From a virus: a stretch of DNA of 64,000 bases. The stretch covers positions 1 to 64,000 of the IMG/VR virus record IMGVR_UViG_3300037475_000199. One strand, given 5' to 3'. Below are positions 1,141 to 55,690 of this stretch, in pieces (the first letter of the stretch is position 1; every line of letters begins with the position of its first letter). The translations under genes and the position numbers were made by a program. The notes below the pieces were generated by a model that saw only the letters and a list, made by a program, of their open reading frames with translations, did not search any database and was not told the DNA's origin.

Positions 1141-1439
1141 AATATTTTATTTTTTCTCAAATTGATCTTATTATGCCAAGCGAGATTCTTCTGATTGAAA
1201 ACTTTAGCCTTAGTTATGCTAAAGGCACACATCTTTGTATTTCAATCGATAAATATGCTTTAGATTTAGATATTTTCTCTATAAATAGAGATCATGGATA
1301 TTTCTTTGTTGAAAAGAAAAATGGATCTAATATTGATTTTAAATCTTTCTTCTACATTCGCCGTCTTTTAAATGAATTTAAAAATAAATATATTGAGTGT
1401 AGTTTAGAGAAGTTTAATGATTTAAAAATATTCTTATAA
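1137..1439 (+). CDS. small protein of the 'LKxF-tail' family
   Basis: Ends ...FNDLKIFL. Similar body to 865..1140 (…SLEK[FY]N[DN]LK[DI]FL). Confidence 0.5.
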   Translation: MKYFIFSQIDLIMPSEILLIENFSLSYAKGTHLCISIDKYALDLDIFSINRDHGYFFVEKKNGSNIDFKSFFYIRRLLNEFKNKYIECSLEKFNDLKIFL

Positions 1440-1461
1440 TAACATGATATATAACAATCAC

Positions 1462-1535
1462 GCCTTCATCGTTCAATGGTAGGACGTTAGCTTGTCACGC
1501 TAATAATGCCGGTTCAATTCCGACTGGGGGCGCCA
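1462..1535 (+). tRNA. tRNA-Asp (GTC)
   Basis: Acceptor GCCTTCA pairs with TGGGGGC through two G-U pairs. D-arm GTTCAATGGTAGGAC. Anticodon loop TTGTCAC. T-arm GGTTCAATTCC. G73 with an encoded CCA. Confidence 0.75.
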
Positions 1536-1547
1536 CTTAATTATTAT

Positions 1548-1622
1548 CCGCTATGAGTCTCTGGTAGAGCTGAGGGGTCTTATAAATCTTTTGGACAGGT
1601 TCGATTCCTGTATGGCGGACCA
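1548..1622 (+). tRNA. tRNA-like element (aberrant; no canonical anticodon arm)
   Basis: Perfect T-arm ACAGG-TTCGATT-CCTGT. Acceptor CCGCTAT pairs with ATGGCGG, followed by A73 and CCA. The D-arm and anticodon-arm region cannot be folded canonically. Confidence 0.4.
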
Positions 1623-1677
1623 TGAGGAATTTTCCTCGCACTGCACATGGTATCCATGTGATAATTTAGGAGCGCTC

Positions 1678-1917
1678 ATGACTAATTTTAATAATCAATC
1701 AGAACTAGATTTTTCTGATATATCTTCAGAAGAATACAGAATTTATGAATTTGAAAGTGGAAGATCAATCTTAATAAATAAACCATTAAGATTAAATGTG
1801 TCACCAAGTGGTGGACACAGGATATATGATGACTCTGGAGAGTCTCATTATATTCCAAAAGGTTGGATTCATCTTAAGTGGAAAGCTAAAGAAGGACAAC
1901 CTAATTTTGTGAAGTGA
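1678..1917 (+). CDS. hypothetical protein (start trimmed to ATG 1678 with SD AGGAG)
   Basis: The track ORF 1591..1917 begins inside the tRNA-like element. An internal ATG is preceded by AGGAG at the right spacing. Confidence 0.4.
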   Translation: MTNFNNQSELDFSDISSEEYRIYEFESGRSILINKPLRLNVSPSGGHRIYDDSGESHYIPKGWIHLKWKAKEGQPNFVK

Positions 1918-2226
1918 TTATATCGGGCAATAATGTTAATTTGTTATTGCTTTGACCATGGATAAATGCCTTGCAAGGATTACATTTTATTTGAAAAACC
2001 AACATCTTTGCTATTTCTTGTTATCCAATTATGGTGCATAGGCGAATCTAGTGAACGCGAAATCCTGAAGAGATTTAGAGCCCCGAGCGTAACGTGGGAT
2101 GCACCACCAAAGAAAGGTAGCGCCTTTCAGTCTGCTCACATGAACGAAACTGTGACGTTCCCTCTTGACTGTATAGATCAAGTAGTAAAAGGGACAGCTG
2201 GTTCACCTAGTCGGAAACGGTGATAA

Positions 2227-2303
2227 AGTCATCTAGTTTAATGGTAAAACGCCATCACATTTATGTGCCGGCGGAGATCTGGGTTCGAGTCCCAGGATGA
2301 TTT
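2227..2303 (+). tRNA. tRNA-like gene with an atypical anticodon region
   Basis: Acceptor AGTCATC pairs with GATGATT. Classic D-arm TAGTTTAATGGTAAAAC. T-arm CTGGG-TTCGAGT-CCCAG. The 28 nt between the D-arm and T-arm form CACAT-TT-ATGTG rather than a 5-bp stem with a 7-nt loop. Confidence 0.45.
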
Positions 2304-2514
2304 CTAATAACGAATGCAGTTTAGGTTTACAATACACGATCCTAAGGTAGTGACACTCTTCTATTCCTTAATTGGAAAGAGGAAATAGCAAGTACAGATA
2401 TAGTAATTTGATATCTTACGTGGCGAATACAGTAGCCTGATAAAAAGGAGCTGTACAGCAGATCACCAGAAACTTAGATAATATTTTGTCGTTATTATTT
2501 TTTAAAGGTGAAAT

Positions 2515-2628
2515 ATGAAGTGTAAGATTCATCCAAAATATAAAGCTATGAGAAAGCCTATAAAGACAGTTAAGTTTCCAAAAGGCTGTAAAGATTGTTT
2601 ATTGATATATAAGGAAATCAAACAATGA
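2515..2628 (+). CDS. very small basic protein (37 aa)
   Basis: ATG 2515 preceded by AAAGGTG. Its stop overlaps the next start (ATGA at 2625). Confidence 0.25.
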   Translation: MKCKIHPKYKAMRKPIKTVKFPKGCKDCLLIYKEIKQ

Positions 2629-2828
2629 AGATTTATAAGCACGTTTTATGTAAAAAGAATCTTTTCAAAAGCACATATAATGATTATGCTTTTGAAATTA
2701 ACAAATATTATTCTTTAGAAGATGAAGATTCGGAATTTTATTTCATAAAGGATAGTACGGGTCATAAATTTAATTTTTCTAAAGAAGTAGACGGTATATC
2801 CTATTGGATAGATGATTACTTTGAATAA
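2625..2828 (+). CDS. hypothetical small protein
   Basis: 67-aa ORF that is translationally coupled to the upstream small ORF. Confidence 0.3.
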   Translation: MKIYKHVLCKKNLFKSTYNDYAFEINKYYSLEDEDSEFYFIKDSTGHKFNFSKEVDGISYWIDDYFE

Positions 2829-2834
2829 CAATAT

Positions 2835-2911
2835 CGACCTCTAGCTCATTTGGTTAGAGTACTTCTCTGATAAGGAAGGGGTGCCGGGTTCGAATCCCGG
2901 GGGGTCGACCA
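2835..2911 (+). tRNA. tRNA-Ile (GAT)
   Basis: Acceptor CGACCTC pairs with GGGGTCG. D-arm GCTCATTTGGTTAGAGT. Anticodon stem CTTCT/GGAAG with loop CTGATAA. T-arm CCGGG-TTCGAAT-CCCGG. A73 with CCA. Confidence 0.75.
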
Positions 2912-2947
2912 TTTAAACAATATAATAATTTTAATTAGGAATTATAT

Positions 2948-3478
2948 ATGTGGGCAAAAGAAGATCAAAGAAAATCAGACCAAGCTTTTAGAGAAAGACG
3001 AAGAGCACGTACACATATTGAAATACCAATCAGTAAAATTTGTTCTGAATGTTTAATAGACAAACCGGCTAGTGAATTTACAAGAGACAAAGTCTCTAAA
3101 GATGGTTTAAAATTTCATTGCAAAGCTTGTACTAAAAAAGAAAATGATACTTGGAAAAACAAAAACTGGTTTAAAAAATTATTACATACCGCAAAATCAA
3201 CTTCGAAAAAATATAATCTTTTATTTGATCTGGATGAAGATTTTATAATTGGTTTGTTTAACTATCAAGATAGAAAGTGTTTTTACCTTGGAATAGATTT
3301 AGAGCCAGCATTTAATAGAAGAAAATTAAATTCTCCATCATTAGATAGAATAGATTGCAATAAAGGATATACTAAGGATAATGTGATTTTATGTTCACAA
3401 TTTGCCAATTTAGGTCGGTGTGATGTTCCTTTTGAAGAATTTAAAAATTTTTGCGATCAACTTATAAACAAGACTTGA
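2948..3478 (+). CDS. Endonuclease VII-like / HNH-type nuclease with Zn ribbon
   Basis: CSEC...CKAC zinc ribbon. C-terminal SLDRIDCNKGYTKDNVILCSQFANLG resembles the Endonuclease_7/HNH core (hlDHdh...vRGlLC..CN..lG). Confidence 0.45.
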   Translation: MWAKEDQRKSDQAFRERRRARTHIEIPISKICSECLIDKPASEFTRDKVSKDGLKFHCKACTKKENDTWKNKNWFKKLLHTAKSTSKKYNLLFDLDEDFIIGLFNYQDRKCFYLGIDLEPAFNRRKLNSPSLDRIDCNKGYTKDNVILCSQFANLGRCDVPFEEFKNFCDQLINKT

Positions 3479-16078: not shown

Positions 16079-16082
16079 AAAT

Positions 16083-16177
16083 ATAAAGTTGCGTGAGTGG
16101 ATTAAACGATCACCCGAGTCAGGGTGAGAAAGAACTTATAAAAAGTCTTTCCAAAAGTTCGAATCTTTTACTTTATA
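16083..16177 (+). tRNA. aberrant type II tRNA-like gene (18-nt anticodon arm; possible 8-nt loop; pseudogene?)
   Basis: Acceptor ATAAAGT pairs with ACTTTAT. Three-bp D-stem CGT/ACG. Anticodon region TCACCCGAGTCAGGGTGA. Long variable hairpin GAAAGA...TCTTTC. T-arm AAAAG-TTCGAAT-CTTTT. No CCA. Confidence 0.35.
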
Positions 16178-16182
16178 TTTAT

Positions 16183-21622: not shown

Positions 21623-22324
21623 ATGAATTTATGTTTATTTTGTAATAAGGAAATTGTTAATAAAAATAATAAATTTTGTAATCGTAGTTGTGCAGCTTCT
21701 TTTAATAATTTAAAGAGGCATCAAGAAGGGTATACTTTAAATGGCAAATCAAAAGTTTTAAATTGTTTAGATTGTAAGGTAGAATTAATTGTGCCACTTA
21801 ACTCCTCTAATTCTATTAGGTGTACAGATTGTTATTTGCACCACATTAACAATAAAGAAATAATTTGCGCAAAATGTAATGAAAAGTTTGTTGGAGCATA
21901 TTATAGAGAATATTGCAATGATTGTTTGCATTTGATTCGCGTAGAACAAGGTAGAATTGGTGGCTTAATAAGAAATACAATCAGAGTTAAACGCTCCAAA
22001 AACGAAATACACTTTGTAAATTTATGTATAGATTATTTTGGTATTGATAATGTGTTGTTAAATGAATCTATGTTTGATGGTTGGGACGCAGATGTTATAA
22101 TAAAAGTTTTAAAAATTGCTGTTTTATGGAATGGGAAATGGCATTATGAAAAAATAACTGAAAAACATTCTTTGTCTCAAGTTCAAAATAGAGATAAAAT
22201 AAAAAAAGACATTATAATGAAATATGGATATATTCCATATATAATAAAGGACATGGGAAGTGAATCAATATTATTTGTTAAAGATGAATTTGATAAATTT
22301 GTTGAATATAGTAAATTAGTTTAA
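21623..22324 (+). CDS. Zn-finger-rich hypothetical protein
   Basis: Multiple CxxC pairs in the N-terminal half. The 3' end overlaps tRNA-Met by about 15 nt. Confidence 0.4.
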   Translation: MNLCLFCNKEIVNKNNKFCNRSCAASFNNLKRHQEGYTLNGKSKVLNCLDCKVELIVPLNSSNSIRCTDCYLHHINNKEIICAKCNEKFVGAYYREYCNDCLHLIRVEQGRIGGLIRNTIRVKRSKNEIHFVNLCIDYFGIDNVLLNESMFDGWDADVIIKVLKIAVLWNGKWHYEKITEKHSLSQVQNRDKIKKDIIMKYGYIPYIIKDMGSESILFVKDEFDKFVEYSKLV

Positions 22325-24460: not shown

Positions 24461-24544
24461 GCGGGTGTCGCATAGTGGCGATTGCGTCAGTTTTCCAAAC
24501 TGAAAATAAAAACACCGAAGGTTCGAGTCCTTTCACCCGCACCA
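24461..24544 (+). tRNA. tRNA-like gene with TCC anticodon loop and 13-nt unpaired variable region (aberrant Gly duplicate?)
   Basis: Acceptor GCGGGTG pairs with CACCCGC. Anticodon stem TCAGT/ACTGA with loop TTTCCAA. Variable region AAATAAAAACACC. T-arm GAAGG-TTCGAGT-CCTTT. A73 with CCA. Confidence 0.45.
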
Positions 24545-24625
24545 TAAGACGAATGTAGATAAGGTTGAGTTAAACATTTTTGTTTATGATAAAACTTTAT
24601 CGCTCTTAGTCGTCTTAATTATATT

Positions 24626-25097: not shown

Positions 25098-26006
25098 ATG
25101 AATACGGCAGAACTAATTAAACAATTGCGTGAATTTACCCAAGCTGGGATGAAGGATTGTATTGATGCTTTAAAAGAATCTGGAAATGATTTAGAAAAAG
25201 CCATTGATATTATTAAAGTCAAAGGAAAAAACATTGTTTCTGGTCGTTCTGGTAGAATAGCATCAGAAGGTTTAGTGGTAATAAGATCATTACCATATAC
25301 AAATGCTATTGCTATGTTGGAAGTAAATTGTCAAACTGATTTCGTAGCTCGCAGCGAACAATTTCAATCATTAGCTAATATAGCTATGCAAGGCTTAGTT
25401 GTTGCAGTAACTAACAATCAAACATGGGATGGTAAAGACAATATAACTACTGCTGCTATTGAAAATGTAACTTCATCTACCAAAGAAAATATTGTTGTTC
25501 GTCGATGGTGGGTAGAAGAAGTAATTGATCCAACAGCCAAAGTATTTCATTATCTTCATAATGGAGATCAATTGGGAGTTATTCTTACTTTGCAAGCTCC
25601 TTCTGTTGAGGCGGCAAGCGACCCAAGATTTATTGCTCTTGGAAATGATTTAGCTATGCAAGTAGCCGCAATGAGTCCAGTAGCAATTTCAGCCGAGCAT
25701 GTATTGCCCGAGGTTAAAGAAAGGCAGCAAGCTATCTTTGAAACTCAATTAAAAGAAGCCAATAAACCAGAAACTGCCTGGGCAAAGATTTTAACTGGCA
25801 AGTTTAATAAGTGGTATTCTGAATCCTGTTTATTAGAACAGGAATCTGTGTTACATCCAAAATCTTCTGTTAAAGATGTTATTGCTTTAGTCTCTAAGCA
25901 GATTGGTGGAGATATTACTGTAGCTAATATGATTAGATGTCAAGTTGGTGAAGGTATAGTAAAAGAAAAAATTGGTTTAGCTGATGAAGTTGCAAAGTTA
26001 ATGTAA
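25098..26006 (+). CDS. tsf: translation elongation factor Ts (EF-Ts)
   Basis: N-terminal UBA-like LIKQLREFTQAGMKDCIDAL. Internal LEVNCQTDFVA is identical to the E. coli EF-Ts core motif. C-terminal RCQVGEGIVKEK compares with RFEVGEGIEK. Confidence 0.75.
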   Translation: MNTAELIKQLREFTQAGMKDCIDALKESGNDLEKAIDIIKVKGKNIVSGRSGRIASEGLVVIRSLPYTNAIAMLEVNCQTDFVARSEQFQSLANIAMQGLVVAVTNNQTWDGKDNITTAAIENVTSSTKENIVVRRWWVEEVIDPTAKVFHYLHNGDQLGVILTLQAPSVEAASDPRFIALGNDLAMQVAAMSPVAISAEHVLPEVKERQQAIFETQLKEANKPETAWAKILTGKFNKWYSESCLLEQESVLHPKSSVKDVIALVSKQIGGDITVANMIRCQVGEGIVKEKIGLADEVAKLM

Positions 26007-33494: not shown

Positions 33495-33576
33495 TTAAAC
33501 ATATGTTTGAATCTGTTATATAGGTTCATGTTCCCAGAGAGGGAACTTTATAATTTAGACAACATGGAGAATGTTA

Positions 33577-34590
33577 ATGAAAAATTTTGAATTTTGTGTA
33601 TTTATTGGTCAATTTAGTCCATTCCATAATGGTCAATCTGCTATTCTTCAAGAAGCTTTAAATCAAGCAGAAACAGTTATTGTTGTCCTTGGTTCAGCTA
33701 AAAAGGCAAGAAACATTGAAGTTTCATGGAATGTCGAGCAACGCATTGAGATGATTAAGTCAACTCTTTCTGTCGAAGATCAGGTTCGTATTAAATTTGT
33801 TCCATTACGAGATCACATTTATAGTGATACAATTTGGGTAACTGAATTATTAGAAAAAATGACTCCCATTTTAAATGGATCAAAGAATGTTTCTTTGGTT
33901 TGTAGAGAAAAGTATAATAAAGAATATCTTAAATTGTTCCCGCAATGGGAATTAATCCCAGTTAAAACTACTGAGCCGCATCATGATGCGGAAGATATTA
34001 GACATCGTTATTTTACATATGATACATCTTATTCTCGTTTCGTTCACGAAAATGTAGCTAAGATGATGAAAGAATTTCAAGACACTCCAATCTTTCAAAC
34101 CTTAAAAAGTGACTTTGATTATGTCAAGAAATATAAGGCAGCATGGGAAGGCGCCCCATTTAAACCAATCTTTGTTACAGTAGATGCTGTAATTGTTAAA
34201 TCTGGACACGTACTTTTAGTGAAGCGTAAGGGTAATCCTGGTAAAGGGCAAATGGCATTACCAGGTGGATTTTTAGATCAAGAAGAGCTAATTGAAGATG
34301 CTGTTTTAAGAGAAGTAAAAGAAGAGACTGCTATTAAAATGTCTAAAGATGAACTTCGAGCCTGCATTACATATTCTGAAGTTTTTGATGCCAAAAATCG
34401 TTCATTGCGTGGGAGAACAATTACTCACGCATTTTTAATTGATTTAGGTTCCGGAACCCTACCAAAAGTAAAAGGTTCTGATGATGCAGAAAAAGCTTTT
34501 TGGCTTCCTTTGAACGAAGTCAAGGACCGTGAAGATGAATTTTTTGAAGATCATTTTCACATTATTAGTTCATTCACAAACAAACTATAA
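33577..34590 (+). CDS. natV: bifunctional NMN adenylyltransferase / Nudix hydrolase (NatV/NadM-Nudix type)
   Basis: N-terminal GQFSPFHNGQ is the nucleotidyltransferase (H/T)xGH-like motif. Nudix box GGFLDQEELIEDAVLREVKEETA. ATG 33577 after GGAGA. Confidence 0.6.
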   Translation: MKNFEFCVFIGQFSPFHNGQSAILQEALNQAETVIVVLGSAKKARNIEVSWNVEQRIEMIKSTLSVEDQVRIKFVPLRDHIYSDTIWVTELLEKMTPILNGSKNVSLVCREKYNKEYLKLFPQWELIPVKTTEPHHDAEDIRHRYFTYDTSYSRFVHENVAKMMKEFQDTPIFQTLKSDFDYVKKYKAAWEGAPFKPIFVTVDAVIVKSGHVLLVKRKGNPGKGQMALPGGFLDQEELIEDAVLREVKEETAIKMSKDELRACITYSEVFDAKNRSLRGRTITHAFLIDLGSGTLPKVKGSDDAEKAFWLPLNEVKDREDEFFEDHFHIISSFTNKL

Positions 34591-34633
34591 TCTTTTCAGA
34601 GAGAAAAGAAGTTAACAATACGGAGAGTACGAA

Positions 34634-36085
34634 ATGAGAACAGTAATCGCAAGAAAAGAAGACTTAGAACATAGCAACGTTACCGACACTGATAGTTACA
34701 AGTTTAGCCATTTTATTTTATATAAGAAGGCTGGCGTAACTAGAATGTTTAGTTATCTAGAGTCTCGTGGTGGTGAATTTGATGTTTCTACTATTTCAGC
34801 CCTACAAGTAGCATTACATAGATACATTGCAAAAGGATTTAAGAGAAAGGACATTGATCGTGCAGAAAAGCTTGCAGCTAAACATGGCGTCCCTTTCAAT
34901 CGTCCAGGATTTGAAGCCATGTATAACAAATATAATGGTAAGTTTCCAGTTAGAATTAGATCTATTCCTGAAGGTATGATAGTTCCAGTTTCAACTGCAC
35001 TATTAACTATTGAGTGTTGTGACGAAGATTGTTTTTGGATTGTCAATTGGCTAGAGACTTTATTATCTAGAATTTGGTATCCTTCTACTATTGCAATTGC
35101 AAGTCGTTCAGTCAAGAAACTTTGGAAGCACTTCTTAGATATGACTTCCGATAATACTGATCTCGAAATTGGATTTAAGCATCATGATTTCGGATCTAGA
35201 GGAGTAACCTGCTTTGAGCAAGCCGAATTGGGCGGTATGGCTCACTTGTTGAGCTTCTTTGGTTCTGATACTTTAGCGGGTGTTGAGCTTGCCAATTACT
35301 ACTATGATTGTGATATGTCAGGATTCTCGATTTGTGCTACTGAACATTCTACCATGACTATTTTTGGTCGTGCTGGTGAACGTCAAGCACTTATTGATTG
35401 GATTACTGAAACATTGGTTAATGTTCCAAATATTCCTGGTGTACCTAAAGTGTCTGCTTGTGTTGGTGACAGCTACAATATCTATGATTTTACTACACTA
35501 GTAAGTCGTGATGATGAGGTAAGAAACTTAATTGCTAATTCAGGGGGCACTTTAGTAGTAAGACCAGATAGCGGTAAACCATCTGAAGTTCTTCCTAAAA
35601 TATTGGAATTGTTTGAGCAAAACTTGCCATCAGGATCTATTACTGTTAATAGTAAGGGATACAAAGTTCTACCTTCATATTTGAGACTTATTTGGGGTGA
35701 TGGCATTAACCGTCGTTCAATGAAAGATATTCTTCAATTAGTAGTTGATCTTGGTTGGAGTGCATCTAATATTGCGTTAGGTTCTGGTGGCGGTTTATTG
35801 CAAGATGTTAATCGTGATACACAGAAGTTTGCTTTTAAGTGTTCGTTTGCTGAAGCAAAAGGCGTCTCAATTGATGTTCTTAAAGATCCAATCACTGATC
35901 CTGGAAAGAAATCAAAAGCGGGTCGCCTTGACACTATTAAGCTTCCAGATGGTGAAATTAAAACAGTCTCCATTGGAGTAAATGAAGAATGTCATCCTCT
36001 TAGCATTATGAATACTGTTTTTGAAATGGGAGATATTACTTATCACACTACGTTCGCTGAATGTAGAGACAGAATGGCGCTATGA
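34634..36085 (+). CDS. nadV: nicotinamide phosphoribosyltransferase (NAMPT/NadV)
   Basis: DTDSYKFSHF near the N-terminus matches the NAMPT DSYK motif. About 480 aa, the size of NadV. Confidence 0.65.
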   Translation: MRTVIARKEDLEHSNVTDTDSYKFSHFILYKKAGVTRMFSYLESRGGEFDVSTISALQVALHRYIAKGFKRKDIDRAEKLAAKHGVPFNRPGFEAMYNKYNGKFPVRIRSIPEGMIVPVSTALLTIECCDEDCFWIVNWLETLLSRIWYPSTIAIASRSVKKLWKHFLDMTSDNTDLEIGFKHHDFGSRGVTCFEQAELGGMAHLLSFFGSDTLAGVELANYYYDCDMSGFSICATEHSTMTIFGRAGERQALIDWITETLVNVPNIPGVPKVSACVGDSYNIYDFTTLVSRDDEVRNLIANSGGTLVVRPDSGKPSEVLPKILELFEQNLPSGSITVNSKGYKVLPSYLRLIWGDGINRRSMKDILQLVVDLGWSASNIALGSGGGLLQDVNRDTQKFAFKCSFAEAKGVSIDVLKDPITDPGKKSKAGRLDTIKLPDGEIKTVSIGVNEECHPLSIMNTVFEMGDITYHTTFAECRDRMAL

Positions 36086-54184: not shown

Positions 54185-55690
54185 ATGGCAGAGAAATTAG
54201 TTGCTTATTCGGCAGGCGAAGAACCGTCTTTTCCTGGAGATTATGATGTAGTAAAAAGGACTACATTAAATTTTACAGACATTATTAACAACAACAATAA
54301 ATATTATAATTTAGAAGTTCAAGTTGCTAAGAATGGCAGTTCAAGAATTTTTACTCAGTATGGTCGAGTAGGCGGAACGGCAGCCAAAGAATATCGAGTA
54401 GCAGCTAATCAGTCTCATGCTGAAACTGAAGCCGAAAAAATTATCAAGTCCAAAACTAAAAAGGGCTATGTTGAAGTTAAATTGGTAAAAGCTGATATTG
54501 GGTCCGAAGCAGGCAAGGCTAAAGTTGATACTTCAGCTTCTAGCGTATCAGTTGATACACTTAAAAAGATGGGTGTTAAAGTTCAGGAAGCAGAAACCAG
54601 TAAATTACATCCTGAAATTGGAGATTTAGTTAGAACTTGGTTCGGCGTTACACAGGAATTTATTGAATTAAATCTTGACACTAAAAAGTGTCCATTAGGT
54701 CAATTATCGATTGATCAAATTGATAAAGCAAAAGAAATATTAGATGAAGCTCGTTTAATTATTCATGCATCTAAACCAGATGTATTAGAATTAAATAAAT
54801 TAACTAACTCTTATTATAGTAACATTCCTCATAACTTTGGTTATGGTAGAATTAATGCCGATGTACTTCGTTTAGACAACGATGATAAGGTAAATAAAGC
54901 TTTTGATATATTAGATGTTTTTGGTTCAGCTAAAAACGTTCAAAGTGTTATTTCAAAGAAATCGGCTGTAGACTCTCAGTATGCCACTTTAAATGCTGAT
55001 TTAAATTTTATTGATCCAAAAGATCCTATTTGGAAATGGATTGACACTATGTTGCATGAGACTAAAGCTAGCAATCATCATTTCTTAGGCAAATTAAAAA
55101 CTCATAAAATTTATAAAGTAAATCGTAAAGGTGAAGAACAGTATTTTCTTAAGAATGCAGAGAAGATTGCTAAAGAATGTGGAAAGCATGATCCTTCTCC
55201 AGTTTACTCTAAATTAGTTAAATCTCGCCCAGATGTATCAAAAGAGCTAAGAGATTTGTATGCAAGAGCTAACGTTTCTCCTGGTTGGCATGGAACTCGT
55301 AGAGCTAATATGATTGGCATTACTACTAAAGGTCTTTTAATTAGACCTTCAGGTGTAGTTCATGCTGGTTCAATGTATGGTGACGGTGTTTACTGGGCTA
55401 CTAATAGTACTAAGAGCATCAATTACTGTGATGTTCGTGGCTCATATTGGGCTGCTGGTACAAATAAAACGGCTTATTTATTCTTAGGTGATGTTGCTTT
55501 TGGTAATTATAAATATGCTAATGGCTCACAATATTATAATAGAAAGAATATTTCGCCAGCACATTCTGTTTTTGCTCAAGGCGGGAAGAGCGGAGTATTG
55601 AATGACGAAATTATTACTTATACTCCATCGGGTCCAGAGCAACAACATTGTTTAAGATATATTATTGAATTCGAAACACAAGCAAAATGA
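54185..55690 (+). CDS. PARP-like ADP-ribosyltransferase (WGR domain plus PARP catalytic domain; H-Y-D variant)
   Basis: WGR-like YYNLEVQ...QYGRVGG. Catalytic WHGTRRANMIGI...GSMYGDGVYWA carries the H-G-T motif and Tyr. YLFLGDVAFGNY aligns with PARP1 LLLGEVALG, with Asp in place of the catalytic Glu. Confidence 0.6.
   Translation: MAEKLVAYSAGEEPSFPGDYDVVKRTTLNFTDIINNNNKYYNLEVQVAKNGSSRIFTQYGRVGGTAAKEYRVAANQSHAETEAEKIIKSKTKKGYVEVKLVKADIGSEAGKAKVDTSASSVSVDTLKKMGVKVQEAETSKLHPEIGDLVRTWFGVTQEFIELNLDTKKCPLGQLSIDQIDKAKEILDEARLIIHASKPDVLELNKLTNSYYSNIPHNFGYGRINADVLRLDNDDKVNKAFDILDVFGSAKNVQSVISKKSAVDSQYATLNADLNFIDPKDPIWKWIDTMLHETKASNHHFLGKLKTHKIYKVNRKGEEQYFLKNAEKIAKECGKHDPSPVYSKLVKSRPDVSKELRDLYARANVSPGWHGTRRANMIGITTKGLLIRPSGVVHAGSMYGDGVYWATNSTKSINYCDVRGSYWAAGTNKTAYLFLGDVAFGNYKYANGSQYYNRKNISPAHSVFAQGGKSGVLNDEIITYTPSGPEQQHCLRYIIEFETQAK

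What the first reader, a model, noticed from the sequence alone, without database searches (positions are those of the whole stretch)
1548..2303. GC-rich roughly 600-bp island bracketed by two tRNA-like elements that lack canonical anticodon arms
The elements at 1548-1622 and 2227-2303 have perfect T-arms, complementary acceptor strands and, for the second, a textbook D-arm. Neither folds into a 5-bp stem with a 7-nt anticodon arm.

The DNA between them, especially 2040-2225, is about 45-50% GC against about 30% for the window. It is rich in GNRA-like hairpins (GCGAAATCC, CGGAAACGG). Its only ORF (1966-2223) has atypical composition.

This looks like a structured ncRNA or a tRNA-derived mobile or foreign insert, not a protein-coding region.
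Basis: seen in the sequence. Interest (0 to 1): 0.7.

Follow-up and report, generated by a model that had tools for sequence, protein, structure and literature searches.

The report
Phage tRNA, Y-RNA-like and tRNA-like cluster
The "GC-rich island" is a row of small RNA genes in a giant phage's tRNA array: two real tRNAs, two Y-RNA-like hairpins, one perfectly conserved tRNA look-alike without an anticodon loop, and one unexplained 117-base RNA, with an ordinary small protein gene among them.

Summary
1548-1622 is a genuine tRNA-Ile(UAU) with a normal 7-nt anticodon loop. 2227-2304 really is a tRNA-shaped element without a canonical anticodon arm or an encoded CCA.

The stretch between them is not one ncRNA:
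- 1678-1917 is a conserved protein gene of 79 aa.
- 1959-2027 is a Y-RNA-like (YrlB-like) hairpin.
- 2033-2109 is a divergent tRNA-Phe(GAA) with CCA that default tRNA finders miss.
- 2110-2226 is a conserved, structured 117-nt RNA of unknown kind.
- 2305-2497, just past the finding, is a second Y-RNA-like RNA.

ORF 1966-2223 is not coding. It is frame-broken in the only relative that has this region, and its substitutions show no codon bias.

The Y-like scaffold recurs 17 times in tRNA arrays of uncultivated jumbo phages. It gives sub-threshold Rfam YrlA hits and lies next to phage Ro60 genes in several contigs. The closest relative encodes Ro60 about 14 kb upstream.

The 117-nt RNA plus the tRNA-like were found in only two genomes. 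They are the best conserved block there (94% and 100% identity).

Verdict: mostly new members or variants of known kinds, with a small unexplained core.

The parts
1462..1535 (+). tRNA-Asp(GUC), encoded CCA (context, just upstream of the finding)
   Evidence: ARAGORN. Rfam tRNA 55.8 bits.
1548..1622 (+). tRNA-Ile(UAU), reads AUA. Canonical anticodon loop CUUAUAA, weak G-U-rich stem, irregular D-arm, encoded CCA.
   Evidence: ARAGORN default. Rfam 26.5 bits, below the gathering score of 29. Present with stems that covary in L001 and L012 (T stem G:C to A:U; anticodon stem G-U to A-U and G-U to U-G), and ARAGORN also calls a tRNA-Ile(UAU) in L007.
1678..1917 (+). Protein gene, 79 aa, function unknown. 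AGGAG lies before the ATG. The 5' leader has two conserved hairpins (1623-1677).
   Evidence: phrog_27874, E 2.9e-5. 65 homologues with E from 5e-14 to 9e-41. 85% amino-acid identity in L001.
1927..1952 (+). Hairpin GCAAUAAUG-UUAAUU-UGUUAUUGC followed by UUUG. Weak terminator-like element after the gene.
   Evidence: Read from the sequence. The stem is kept in L001 through two one-sided changes, each turning a G-U pair into A-U. The terminator scan did not call it.
1959..2027 (+). Y-RNA-like RNA no. 1 (YrlB-like long hairpin). Outer stem UGGAUA/UAUCCA, 5' internal loop AAUGC, inner stem GCAAGGAU/AUCUUUGC, 3' internal loop ending UUGU, 20-nt apical loop.
   Evidence: Fold z = -2.4. Both stems covary in L001 (GGACAA/UUGUCC; AUAAGGAU/AUCUUUGU). 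Member of the 17-copy scaffold alignment. Rfam YrlB 17.9 bits, E 2.8, weak on its own.
2033..2109 (+). Divergent tRNA-Phe(GAA). 7-bp acceptor stem, 3-bp D stem, canonical anticodon arm AAAUC-CUGAAGA-GAUUU, T stem with one bulged U, non-canonical T loop AGCGUAA, discriminator A, encoded CCA.
   Evidence: ARAGORN calls it only at relaxed threshold (-ps80) or in -mt mode. No Rfam tRNA hit at E <= 10. Six of eight substitutions against L001 form three compensatory pairs, and the other two are unpaired. Model R1 hits the tRNA-Phe(GAA) genes that ARAGORN annotates in L002, L007, L003 and L012 at 57-61 bits, with the same D loop and similar T loops.
2110..2226 (+). 117-nt conserved structured RNA of unknown kind. 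Hairpins at 2112-2128 (7 bp, loop AGC), 2136-2155, 2157-2195 (two-part), 2197-2211 (T-arm-like, loop UUCAC) and 2212-2219 (GAAA loop). Possible pseudoknot or alternative helix 2128-2132/2167-2171.
   Evidence: 94% identical in L001. Compensatory U:A to C:G in 2197-2211. A second double change keeps CAGUC/GACUG as CAGCC/GGCUG. Of the seven substitutions read in the ORF 1966-2223 frame, six change the amino acid. No Rfam hit. No homologue in 85 sources (the window plus 84 loci) with model R2. Single-sequence fold not better than shuffles for 2025-2226 (z = -0.2).
2227..2304 (+). tRNA-like RNA. Acceptor stem, D-arm and T-arm intact. The anticodon arm is replaced by a 13-nt loop or extended hairpin. 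No CCA.
   Evidence: Rfam tRNA 46.3 bits, with 19 nt where the model has 13. ARAGORN fold poor. 78/78 identical in L001. D-arm identical to that of the window's tRNA-Met at 22310. Arms most similar to a phage tRNA-Gln in L002.
2305..2497 (+). Y-RNA-like RNA no. 2. Outer stem UAAUAACG/CGUUAUUA, AAUGC loop, inner stem UUUAGGUU/AACUUAGA (three covarying positions against the family consensus), 140-nt apical insert without a T-arm. It starts right after the tRNA-like.
   Evidence: Fold z = -2.3 with the closing stems. Motif match: 2 in the window against 0.05 expected. Member of the scaffold alignment. L001 has another family member, with a different insert, at the same place.
24545..24617 (+). 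Candidate third Y-RNA-like hairpin, directly after tRNA-Gly. It lies outside the finding and is listed because it belongs to the same family.
   Evidence: Relaxed scaffold scan. Fold z = -4.5 with the same outer stem, AAUGU loop and inner stem layout. No Rfam Y-RNA hit.

Best explanation
**What it is.** The finding covers part of the tRNA array of an uncultivated, AT-rich jumbo phage. On the + strand lie, in order:
- tRNA-Asp
- tRNA-Ile(UAU)
- a small protein gene
- a Y-RNA-like hairpin (Y1)
- a divergent tRNA-Phe(GAA)
- a 117-nt structured RNA
- an anticodon-less tRNA-like RNA
- a second Y-RNA-like RNA (Y2)

**Shown**
- the gene identities, the helices and their covariation
- the recurrence of the Y-like scaffold in phage tRNA arrays
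- its linkage to phage Ro60 genes

**Inferred**
- The array is transcribed as long precursors.
- The cloverleaf units act as punctuation. RNase P would cut at 2032/2033 and 2226/2227, and 3' processing would act after 2109 and 2303.
- This would release Y1 with a 5-nt 3' tail, mature tRNA-Phe-CCA, the 117-nt RNA, the tRNA-like and Y2.
- Y1 and Y2 then bind the phage's Ro60 through the AAUGC/UUGU bulged stem, as bacterial YrlA and YrlB bind Rsr. Their variable apical modules would recruit different partners for RNA quality control or repair during infection.
- The invariant tRNA-like most likely serves as a stable processing handle and protein-binding tRNA mimic, not as a decoder.
- The function of the 117-nt RNA is unknown. 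My best guess is a stable small RNA that works with the tRNA-like or the Ro60 system.
For: **Gene calls**: ARAGORN and Rfam.

**Protein gene**.

**Conservation against L001, by segment**
- tRNA-like 100%
- 117-nt RNA 94%
- tRNA-Phe 89%
- Y1 70%
- Y2 about 51%
- true tRNA-Asp and tRNA-Ile(GAU) 75%

**Covariation**
- Four compensatory pairs in 2032-2211.
- A looser permutation count found five, P about 0.001.

**tRNA-Phe orthology**: model R1 gives 57-61 bits to annotated phage tRNA-Phe genes. L012 has a tRNA-Phe at the same relative position.

**Y-like scaffold**
- 17 copies collected.
- 92.9% of cells paired, 11 of 15 pairs with double changes, covariation score 0.56 against 0.20 in shuffles.
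- Rfam YrlA hits over the full model length: 34.2 bits (E 3.4e-6) and 45.3 bits.
- The alignment shows the same AAUGC and UUGU loops and, in sibling copies, a T-arm, an acceptor-like hairpin and a D-arm.

**Ro60 linkage**
- TROVE plus vWA_Ro60 proteins in L028 and L049, and a partial one in L036.
- In L096 the order is Ro60, then 1.2 kb, then a YrlA-like RNA, then a scaffold copy, then a tRNA.
- The contig that holds the only other copy of this locus encodes Ro60 about 14 kb upstream on the same strand (L069 against L001).

**Abutment to tRNAs**: L007 copies fill the gaps between tRNAs to within 0-2 nt.

**Literature**
- Y RNAs with the motif GNCGAAN0-1G lie near rsr, also in phages. M. smegmatis YrlA is cut by RNase P (PMC4201824).
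- A subset of jumbo phages carry TROVE with a tRNA-like partner (PMC7824862).
Against: - No expression or processing data.
- No Ro60 gene in the 64-kb window (for ORFs of 400 aa or more).
- No Y-like copy reaches Rfam's gathering score of 69.
- The window's own Y1 and Y2 give only a weak Rfam hit or none.
- They match the published 5' motif loosely: AACGAAUG in Y2 and GAUAAAUG in Y1.
- Outer-stem complementarity was one of my criteria for accepting copies. This inflates that part of the covariation test.
- The 117-nt RNA and the tRNA-like are known from two genomes only. Their structure therefore rests on few substitutions, and their high identity could partly reflect recent exchange rather than constraint.
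- tRNA-Phe has a T loop (AGCGUAA) lacking T54-psi55 and A58. Its function in translation is therefore not certain.
Confidence: 0.7

Rival explanations
1. The 117-nt RNA and the tRNA-like are decaying remnants: a pseudo-tRNA, probably tRNA-Gln-derived, with a wrecked anticodon loop, plus junk spacer. They look conserved only because the block was exchanged recently between the two phages.
For: - Found in only two genomes despite the viral, metagenome and genome scans run.
- Absent from the closely related L012.
- The block 2033-2304 is far less diverged than its flanks Y1 and Y2. That is the pattern recombination gives.
- The single-sequence fold of 2025-2226 is not better than shuffles.
Against: - Within the block, substitutions are not spread evenly. 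There are 15 in the other 193 aligned nt and none in the 78-nt tRNA-like. At that rate, zero is expected with P of about 0.002 (my arithmetic).
- Where substitutions occur they are compensatory.
- The acceptor, D and T arms are flawless, which is unlike a decaying pseudogene.
Confidence: 0.15
2. 2227-2304 is a working decoder tRNA with an expanded or processed anticodon loop. Examples would be a short intron, or an 8- to 13-nt loop used for unusual decoding.
For: - ARAGORN calls it tRNA-Met(CAU) by default.
- With introns allowed it calls tRNA-Ile(UAU) with a 3-nt intron.
- The rest of the cloverleaf is perfect.
- The window holds another odd tRNA-shaped gene with an 8-nt loop at 16082.
Against: - Both ARAGORN solutions need anticodon stems with only three standard pairs out of five, and the Met(CAU) fold also lacks U33 (the stem of the intron solution is my own reading of the sequence).
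- No bulge-helix-bulge motif, as I read the fold.
- No encoded CCA, unlike the other tRNA genes I drew.
- The phage already has tRNA-Ile(UAU) and tRNA-Met(CAU).
- From general knowledge, not checked here: bacterial and phage tRNA introns are large group I introns, not 3-6 nt.
Confidence: 0.07
3. The region 1966-2223 encodes a small protein of 85 aa.
For: - An ATG-initiated ORF exists.
- A JGI pipeline called it a hypothetical protein on a 70,885-nt contig.
Against: - In L001 a 2-nt and a 1-nt indel split it.
- Substitutions fall 6/6/3 on codon positions 1/2/3. Six of the seven in the 3' part change the amino acid.
- No match in PHROGs, and only an insignificant Pfam hit (E 0.24).
- No homologue other than itself among 5.8 billion protein clusters.
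- It overlaps Y1 and a whole tRNA-Phe gene.
Confidence: 0.02
4. The block is a mobile or integrative cassette that uses the tRNA-like as an attachment site. The variable DNA just 3' of it would then be the scar of insertions.
For: - Homology between the window and L001 stops within a few bases of the 3' end of the tRNA-like and resumes at the next gene.
- Cassette content differs in L012.
- An Endo VII/HNH-like gene lies at 2948-3478.
Against: - The variable segment is a Y-RNA-like gene in both genomes, with the family scaffold intact and only the apical module swapped.
- No integrase or transposase is nearby.
- The window region has no flanking direct repeats beyond chance-level short ones.
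Confidence: 0.05

Closest known systems
Bacterial and phage Y RNAs: YrlA and YrlB (Rfam RF02553, RF02565; Chen et al. 2014, PMC4201824)
   Same: - Long stem made by the 5' and 3' ends.
- Conserved 5' internal loop (CG)AAUGC and 3' UUGU loop, as in the Rfam YrlA consensus.
- Sibling copies carry a T-arm, an acceptor-like hairpin and a D-arm module.
- Short members are long hairpins with a small loop, like YrlB.
- Several per genome.
- Linked to Ro60 genes on the same strand.
   Different: - Scores of 17-45 bits, below the gathering score of 69.
- The published motif GNCGAAN0-1G is met only loosely.
- Copies are embedded in tRNA arrays and abut tRNAs, up to four in 8 kb.
- Apical modules of 12-158 nt are swapped between orthologous positions.
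- The window's two copies lack the tRNA-like module.
- In the nearest relative Ro60 is 14 kb away, against the separation of under 2 kb reported for the S. Typhimurium and D. radiodurans RNAs (PMC4201824).
Jumbo-phage TROVE/Ro RNA-repair systems with a tRNA-like partner (Iyer et al. 2021, PMC7824862)
   Same: - Jumbo-phage setting with many tRNAs.
- A Ro60 (TROVE plus vWA) gene in the lineage.
   Different: - In the passages I read, that survey notes the protein and 'a tRNA-like partner' only in general terms.
- I did not see the multi-copy, array-embedded scaffold family, the free-standing anticodon-less tRNA-like or the 117-nt RNA described in those passages.
Phage T4 stable RNAs species 1 and 2 (rnaC, rnaD) in the T4 tRNA cluster. 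This comparison is from memory and was not checked here.
   Same: Small stable RNAs of unknown function, co-transcribed with phage tRNAs and released by the tRNA-processing machinery.
   Different: - No sequence relation was tested.
- As far as I know, T4 has no Ro60 or Y RNA.
MALAT1-mascRNA and MEN-beta tRNA-like 3' processing (listed: PMC8457004)
   Same: A tRNA-like cloverleaf with a non-functional anticodon region. RNase P cleavage there defines the 3' end of the upstream ncRNA.
   Different: This is a eukaryotic nuclear system with no homology. Here the processing role is inferred only.
Canonical bacterial and phage tRNA-Phe(GAA)
   Same: - Anticodon arm, A73 and CCA.
- Overall cloverleaf.
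- Orthology with the tRNA-Phe genes that ARAGORN annotates in related phages.
   Different: - T loop AGCGUAA instead of UUCGAAU.
- D loop without an adjacent GG.
- 3-bp D stem and a bulged T stem.
- Missed by ARAGORN at default settings and by Rfam.

Membership tests
Y RNA (YrlA/YrlB) | Long stem formed by the 5' and 3' ends, with a conserved internal loop (the Ro60 binding site) | tested here: met
   Y1 and Y2 fold this way. The 17-copy alignment shows covariation in both helices. The loops AAUGC and UUGU align to the YrlA consensus.
Y RNA (YrlA/YrlB) | 5' motif GNCGAAN0-1G (PMC4201824) | tested here: inconclusive
   Y2 has AACGAAUG and Y1 has GAUAAAUG. The family consensus is (C/U)(G/A)AAUGC. 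The core is kept, but the first G and the CG are not always present.
Y RNA (YrlA/YrlB) | Rfam gathering score (69 bits for YrlA, 97 for YrlB) | tested here: not met
   Window Y1 scores 17.9 bits for YrlB. Y2 and Y3 have no hit. The best siblings score 34.2 and 45.3 bits.
Y RNA (YrlA/YrlB) | tRNA-like module (T-arm, acceptor-like hairpin, D-arm) in at least one Y RNA per genome | tested here: inconclusive
   Present in sibling copies such as L007:1618-1759. The window's Y1 and Y2 lack it. A free-standing tRNA-like lies between them.
Y RNA (YrlA/YrlB) | Encoded near a Ro60 (rsr) gene on the same strand | tested here: inconclusive
   Met for L028/L096 (1.2-1.4 kb) and L049 (4.6 kb), and a partial Ro60 is present in L036. 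The distance is 14 kb in the nearest relative. There is no Ro60 in the window itself. By synteny the gene would lie upstream of the window's start.
Y RNA (YrlA/YrlB) | Binds Ro60/Rsr and depends on it for stability | not testable with these tools
   Needs co-immunoprecipitation or genetics.
tRNA (element 1548-1622) | Cloverleaf with a 5-bp anticodon stem, a 7-nt loop, U33, a T loop and CCA | tested here: met
   Stems covary in L001 and L012. The Rfam score of 26.5 is just below the gathering score of 29 because of the D-arm.
tRNA (element 2033-2109, Phe) | Cloverleaf with a canonical anticodon arm, discriminator and CCA | tested here: met
   ARAGORN with -ps80 or -mt. Three compensatory pairs, one per stem. 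Model R1 links it to tRNA-Phe genes that ARAGORN annotates.
tRNA (element 2033-2109, Phe) | Conserved T loop (T54-psi55-C56...A58) and D loop G18G19 that form the elbow | tested here: not met
   The T loop is AGCGUAA and the D loop is AAUCUAGUGAA. ARAGORN at default settings and Rfam do not call it.
tRNA (element 2227-2304) | Acceptor stem, D-arm and T-arm | tested here: met
   Rfam 46.3 bits.
tRNA (element 2227-2304) | 5-bp anticodon stem with a 7-nt loop and U33 | tested here: not met
   19 nt where the model has 13. A 13-nt loop or an extended hairpin. With introns allowed, the only solution has a stem with three standard pairs out of five by my reading.
tRNA (element 2227-2304) | Encoded CCA, as in the genuine tRNA genes drawn from this phage | tested here: not met
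   The 3' end reads ...GAUGAUU-U-CUAAU.
tmRNA, RNase P RNA, group I intron, known phage ncRNAs | Match to the Rfam covariance models or to the ARAGORN tmRNA search | tested here: not met
   Nothing at E <= 10 in 1400-3000 apart from tRNAs and weak chance-level hits. ARAGORN -m found nothing, even at a relaxed threshold.

The most novel reading that the evidence does not exclude
The invariant anticodon-less tRNA-like RNA and the adjacent 117-nt RNA form a previously undescribed phage RNA module. Two readings fit:
- It is a trans-acting 'tRNA-like domain' for the module-less Y RNAs that flank it, so that the Y RNA is split into pieces.
- It is a tRNA decoy that titrates host tRNA-targeting defence nucleases or repair enzymes during jumbo-phage infection.
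Probability: 0.2. Interest if true: 0.75.

Novelty: new variant of a known kind. Interest (0 to 1): 0.5.

Why it matters
- **Under-annotation.** tRNA arrays of uncultivated jumbo phages hold more than tRNAs. Default tools missed a tRNA-Phe and three Y-RNA-like genes here. They also mislabelled a tRNA mimic as tRNA-Met.
- **A tractable family.** The Y-like scaffold has one conserved Ro60-type stem and freely swapped apical modules. It is multi-copy and punctuated by tRNAs. It lies in contigs from lineages that encode their own Ro60. This offers a natural library for asking what Y-RNA modules recruit, and why phages need Ro60.
- **A concrete unknown.** The two-genome, near-invariant block of 117-nt RNA plus tRNA-like is a small, well-defined target for experiments.

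Tried and rejected
**Known RNA families**
- Rfam at the gathering threshold and at E <= 10 found no tmRNA, RNase P RNA, intron, riboswitch or known phage ncRNA over 2033-2226.
- By eye, the hammerhead-like CUGAAGA turned out to be the tRNA-Phe anticodon loop.
- By eye, there is no bulge-helix-bulge intron motif in the tRNA-like.

**Search for relatives of the locus**
- blastn of the locus against 50,697 phage records gave no match.
- tblastn of the ligase gave at most 32% identity, so no cultured relative exists.
- Exact or degenerate pattern scans for the tRNA-like loop and for two motifs in 2033-2128 found only the one 448-kb contig, plus two chance hits. Collections: IMG/VR, JGI metagenomes and GTDB genomes.
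- nhmmer over all fetched loci found nothing more.
- Covariance model R2 of the 117-nt RNA, run over 707 kb, found nothing more.
- Synteny route through homologues of the 79-aa protein: L007 to L014 lack the element, and two contigs had no DNA available.
- Searching the spurious ORF as a protein found only itself.

**Other ideas tested**
- 'AAGGATTACATT' as a promoter motif: not enriched in the window. It proved to be the inner stem of the Y-like scaffold.
- Sigma-70 promoter scan: at chance level.
- Antisense targets of the 117-nt RNA or the tRNA-like in the window: no complementary stretch of 11 nt or more.
- Other broken tRNA-likes next to Y-like copies in L007 and L001: none convincing.
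Full report
**Setting**

The window is 30.7% GC. Nearly all ORFs of 120 aa or more are on the + strand. ARAGORN tRNA genes.

The window encodes EF-Ts, NAMPT, an NMNAT-Nudix protein, a PARP-like protein, NAD-dependent ligase and a UvrD-type helicase. blastn of the locus finds nothing among 50,697 phage records. The ligase is at most 32% identical to any phage in that collection.

The nearest relative is a 447,763-bp IMG contig (L001, L006, L015, L060 and L069 are pieces of it). It is syntenic across the finding. This is therefore an uncultivated jumbo-phage lineage, and the finding lies in its tRNA array.

**Element 1 (1548-1622)**

ARAGORN calls tRNA-Ile(UAU). Its drawing shows a 7-nt loop c-u-UAU-a-a on a stem with three G-U pairs, plus an encoded CCA. 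Rfam aligns the same arm and scores 26.5 bits, just under the gathering score of 29. The shortfall comes from an irregular D-arm.

The gene is present in L001 and L012, with a G:C to A:U change in the T stem and G-U to A-U and G-U to U-G changes in the anticodon stem. ARAGORN also calls a tRNA-Ile(UAU) in L007. It is a real tRNA.

**The stretch 1623-1958**

1678-1917 follows an AGGAG and encodes 79 aa. It matches phrog_27874 (E 2.9e-5). It has 65 homologues with E from 5e-14 to 9e-41. It is protein-coding and about 30% GC. A hairpin at 1927-1952 follows it.

**Y-RNA-like RNAs**

1959-2027 folds as two nested stems separated by an internal loop. Both stems covary in L001 (GGAUAA/UUAUCC to GGACAA/UUGUCC; GC...GC to AU...GU).

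The same scaffold closes 2305-2497. The scaffold consists of:
- an outer stem
- the loop AAUGC
- the inner stem xxAAGGAU/AUCUUUxx
- the loop ...UUGU
- the return strand of the outer stem

It also occurs at three places in L001 and four in L007. The 5' motif occurs twice in the window against 0.05 expected. A scan of IMG/VR returned 49 hits, of which ten carry the complete scaffold. All ten lie in tRNA arrays on the tRNA strand.

I reduced seventeen copies to their scaffold. In that alignment 92.9% of cells pair, 11 of 15 pairs show double changes, and the covariation score is 0.56 against 0.20 in shuffles and 0.16 or less when the partners are slid. One caveat applies: I accepted copies partly on outer-stem complementarity. 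The inner-stem covariation is free of that bias.

Rfam's YrlA model aligns end to end to L007:1618-1759 (34.2 bits, E 3.4e-6). The alignment shows the same AAUGC and UUGU loops and an internal T-arm, acceptor-like hairpin and D-arm. It also hits L007:2905-3045 (23.8 bits) and L096:5796-5934 (45.3 bits). Window 1958-2032 gives a weak YrlB hit (17.9 bits). None reaches the gathering score.

Independent support comes from gene linkage:
- L028 and L049 encode TROVE plus vWA_Ro60 proteins above Pfam's cut-offs.
- L036 holds a partial one.
- In L096 the order is Ro60, then 1.2 kb, then a YrlA-like RNA, then a scaffold copy, then a tRNA.
- The relative's contig encodes a full-length Ro60 at about 99.8-101.4 kb. 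Its copy of this locus lies at about 115.5 kb on the same strand.

Chen et al. describe exactly such RNAs near rsr, also in phages. [quoted passage not shown] Iyer et al. note TROVE with a tRNA-like partner in some jumbo phages (PMC7824862).

I therefore file 1959-2027 and 2305-2497 as diverged Y-RNA-like RNAs. 24545-24617 is a probable third.

**The GC-rich part, first half (2033-2109)**

RNAalifold on the window and L001 gave an 8-bp stem (2032-2039/2099-2106) enclosing three hairpins. There was one compensatory change in the outer stem and one in each of two hairpins. This is a cloverleaf.

ARAGORN at 80% threshold, or in mitochondrial mode, calls tRNA-Phe(GAA) at 2033-2109 including CCA. 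Of the eight differences from L001, six form three compensatory pairs (acceptor, anticodon and T stems). The other two lie at unpaired linker positions.

A covariance model built from the two sequences scores 57-61 bits on the tRNA-Phe(GAA) genes that ARAGORN annotates in L002, L007, L003 and L012. These share the D loop AAUCUxGUGAA and unusual T loops; L007 has the same AGCGUAA. L012 has its tRNA-Phe directly after the same 79-aa gene.

So this is the lineage's tRNA-Phe. Default tools miss it because of a 3-bp D stem, a bulged T stem and a non-canonical T loop.

**The GC-rich part, second half (2110-2226)**

This piece is 117 nt, 45% GC and 94% identical in L001. The predicted hairpins are listed under parts. 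One hairpin (2197-2211) shows U:A to C:G. A second double change keeps CAGUC/GACUG as CAGCC/GGCUG (2128-2132/2167-2171). That helix would compete with, or form a pseudoknot with, the 2157-2195 hairpin.

Over 2026-2226, random placement of the same 16 substitutions gives five or more compensatory helix pairs in 6 of 5000 trials.

ORF 1966-2223 overlaps Y1, the tRNA-Phe and this RNA. The evidence that it is not coding:
- It is split in L001 by 2-nt and 1-nt indels.
- It shows no third-position bias.
- It has no family match.
- It has no homologue but itself.

I could not identify what the 117-nt RNA is:
- No Rfam hit.
- No hit with model R2 in 707 kb of related loci.
- No antisense target in the window.
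- No tRNA or tmRNA solution, even at relaxed thresholds.

**Element 2 (2227-2304)**

The acceptor stem, D-arm and T-arm are intact (46.3 bits). The anticodon region is 19 nt where the model has 13. It folds as CGCC-AU-CACA-UUUA-UGUG-CC-GGCG, or as a 13-nt loop on a stem with an A-C mismatch. There is no CCA.

It is 78/78 identical in L001. The rest of the block has 15 differences in 193 nt, and the neighbouring true tRNAs are only 75% identical. Its D-arm equals that of the window's tRNA-Met. Its other arms resemble a phage tRNA-Gln. It is a tRNA-derived mimic under strong constraint.

Y2's outer stem begins two bases after its discriminator. tRNA-Phe begins five bases after Y1. Sibling Y-like copies in L007 fill tRNA-to-tRNA gaps to within 0-2 nt. 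This layout is what tRNA-punctuated processing predicts. That step is inference.

**Distribution**

The 117-nt RNA and the tRNA-like were found only in the window and in the 448-kb contig. L012's copy of the 79-aa protein is 88% identical. That locus has tRNA-Phe and tRNA-Ile(GAU) directly after the gene. It has no Y1, 117-nt RNA, tRNA-like or Y2. At the Y2 position, the window and L001 carry family members with unrelated apical inserts. The array thus evolves by module gain, loss and swapping.

**Verdict**

What remains is a compact unexplained pair, the 117-nt RNA and the anticodon-less tRNA mimic.

Noticed in passing
window 16082-16178 (+): A tRNA-shaped element with an 8-bp acceptor stem, a long variable arm, an 8-nt anticodon loop (ARAGORN 'tRNA-???', agtc) and no CCA. 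This is a second non-standard tRNA-like gene in this phage.
   Followed up: no
window 24545-24617 (+): A third Y-RNA-like hairpin lies directly after tRNA-Gly(UCC) 24461-24544. It has the same outer stem, AAUGU loop and inner stem layout. Fold z = -4.5. No Rfam Y-RNA hit.
   Followed up: partly
L007:1099-1214; L040:9459-9592; L036:2433-2561; L030:3351-3481: Rfam tRNA hits of 116-134 nt in related phage arrays. These are tRNAs that carry inserts of about 45-65 nt, possibly introns or nested modules.
   Followed up: no
L002:7846-7921, L003:7302-7378, L007:3134-3209, L012:579-655, window 2033-2109: The tRNA-Phe(GAA) genes of this phage group share a D loop AAUCUxGUGAA. Four of the five have T loops that depart from UUCGAAU (AGCGUAA, AUCGAAA, AUCGUUA); L012's is closer to canonical. 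This suggests a lineage-specific elbow.
   Followed up: partly
L096:575-1032 (+): A sub-threshold match to permuted tmRNA (40.4 bits, gathering score 47), about 2 kb upstream of a phage Ro60 gene on a 165-kb viral contig.
   Followed up: no
L067-L132 (IMG/VR): 66 distinct viral loci encode full-length Ro60 (TROVE plus vWA) relatives, most on contigs of 50-500 kb. My strict scaffold pattern found Y-like RNAs within 3 kb in only 2 of the 66. Most partners are therefore either further away or more diverged.
   Followed up: partly
window 25098-26006, 33571-36085, 54185-55690: The phage encodes EF-Ts and an NAD salvage pair (NMNAT-Nudix and NAMPT). It also encodes a PARP-like protein with WGR and regulatory domains, a domain set better known from eukaryotes.
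   Followed up: no
window 1623-1677 (+): The 5' leader of the 79-aa gene holds two hairpins (GAGGAAUUUUCCUC and CACAUGGUAUCCAUGUG). They are conserved in L001 and L012, and a near-identical leader is visible before the homologous gene in L007. This may be a cis-regulatory element.
   Followed up: no
window 2948-3478 (+): An Endo VII/HNH-like endonuclease gene (phrog_3322, E 8e-30) sits among the tRNAs, right after tRNA-Ile(GAU). It could drive cassette shuffling in the array.
   Followed up: no
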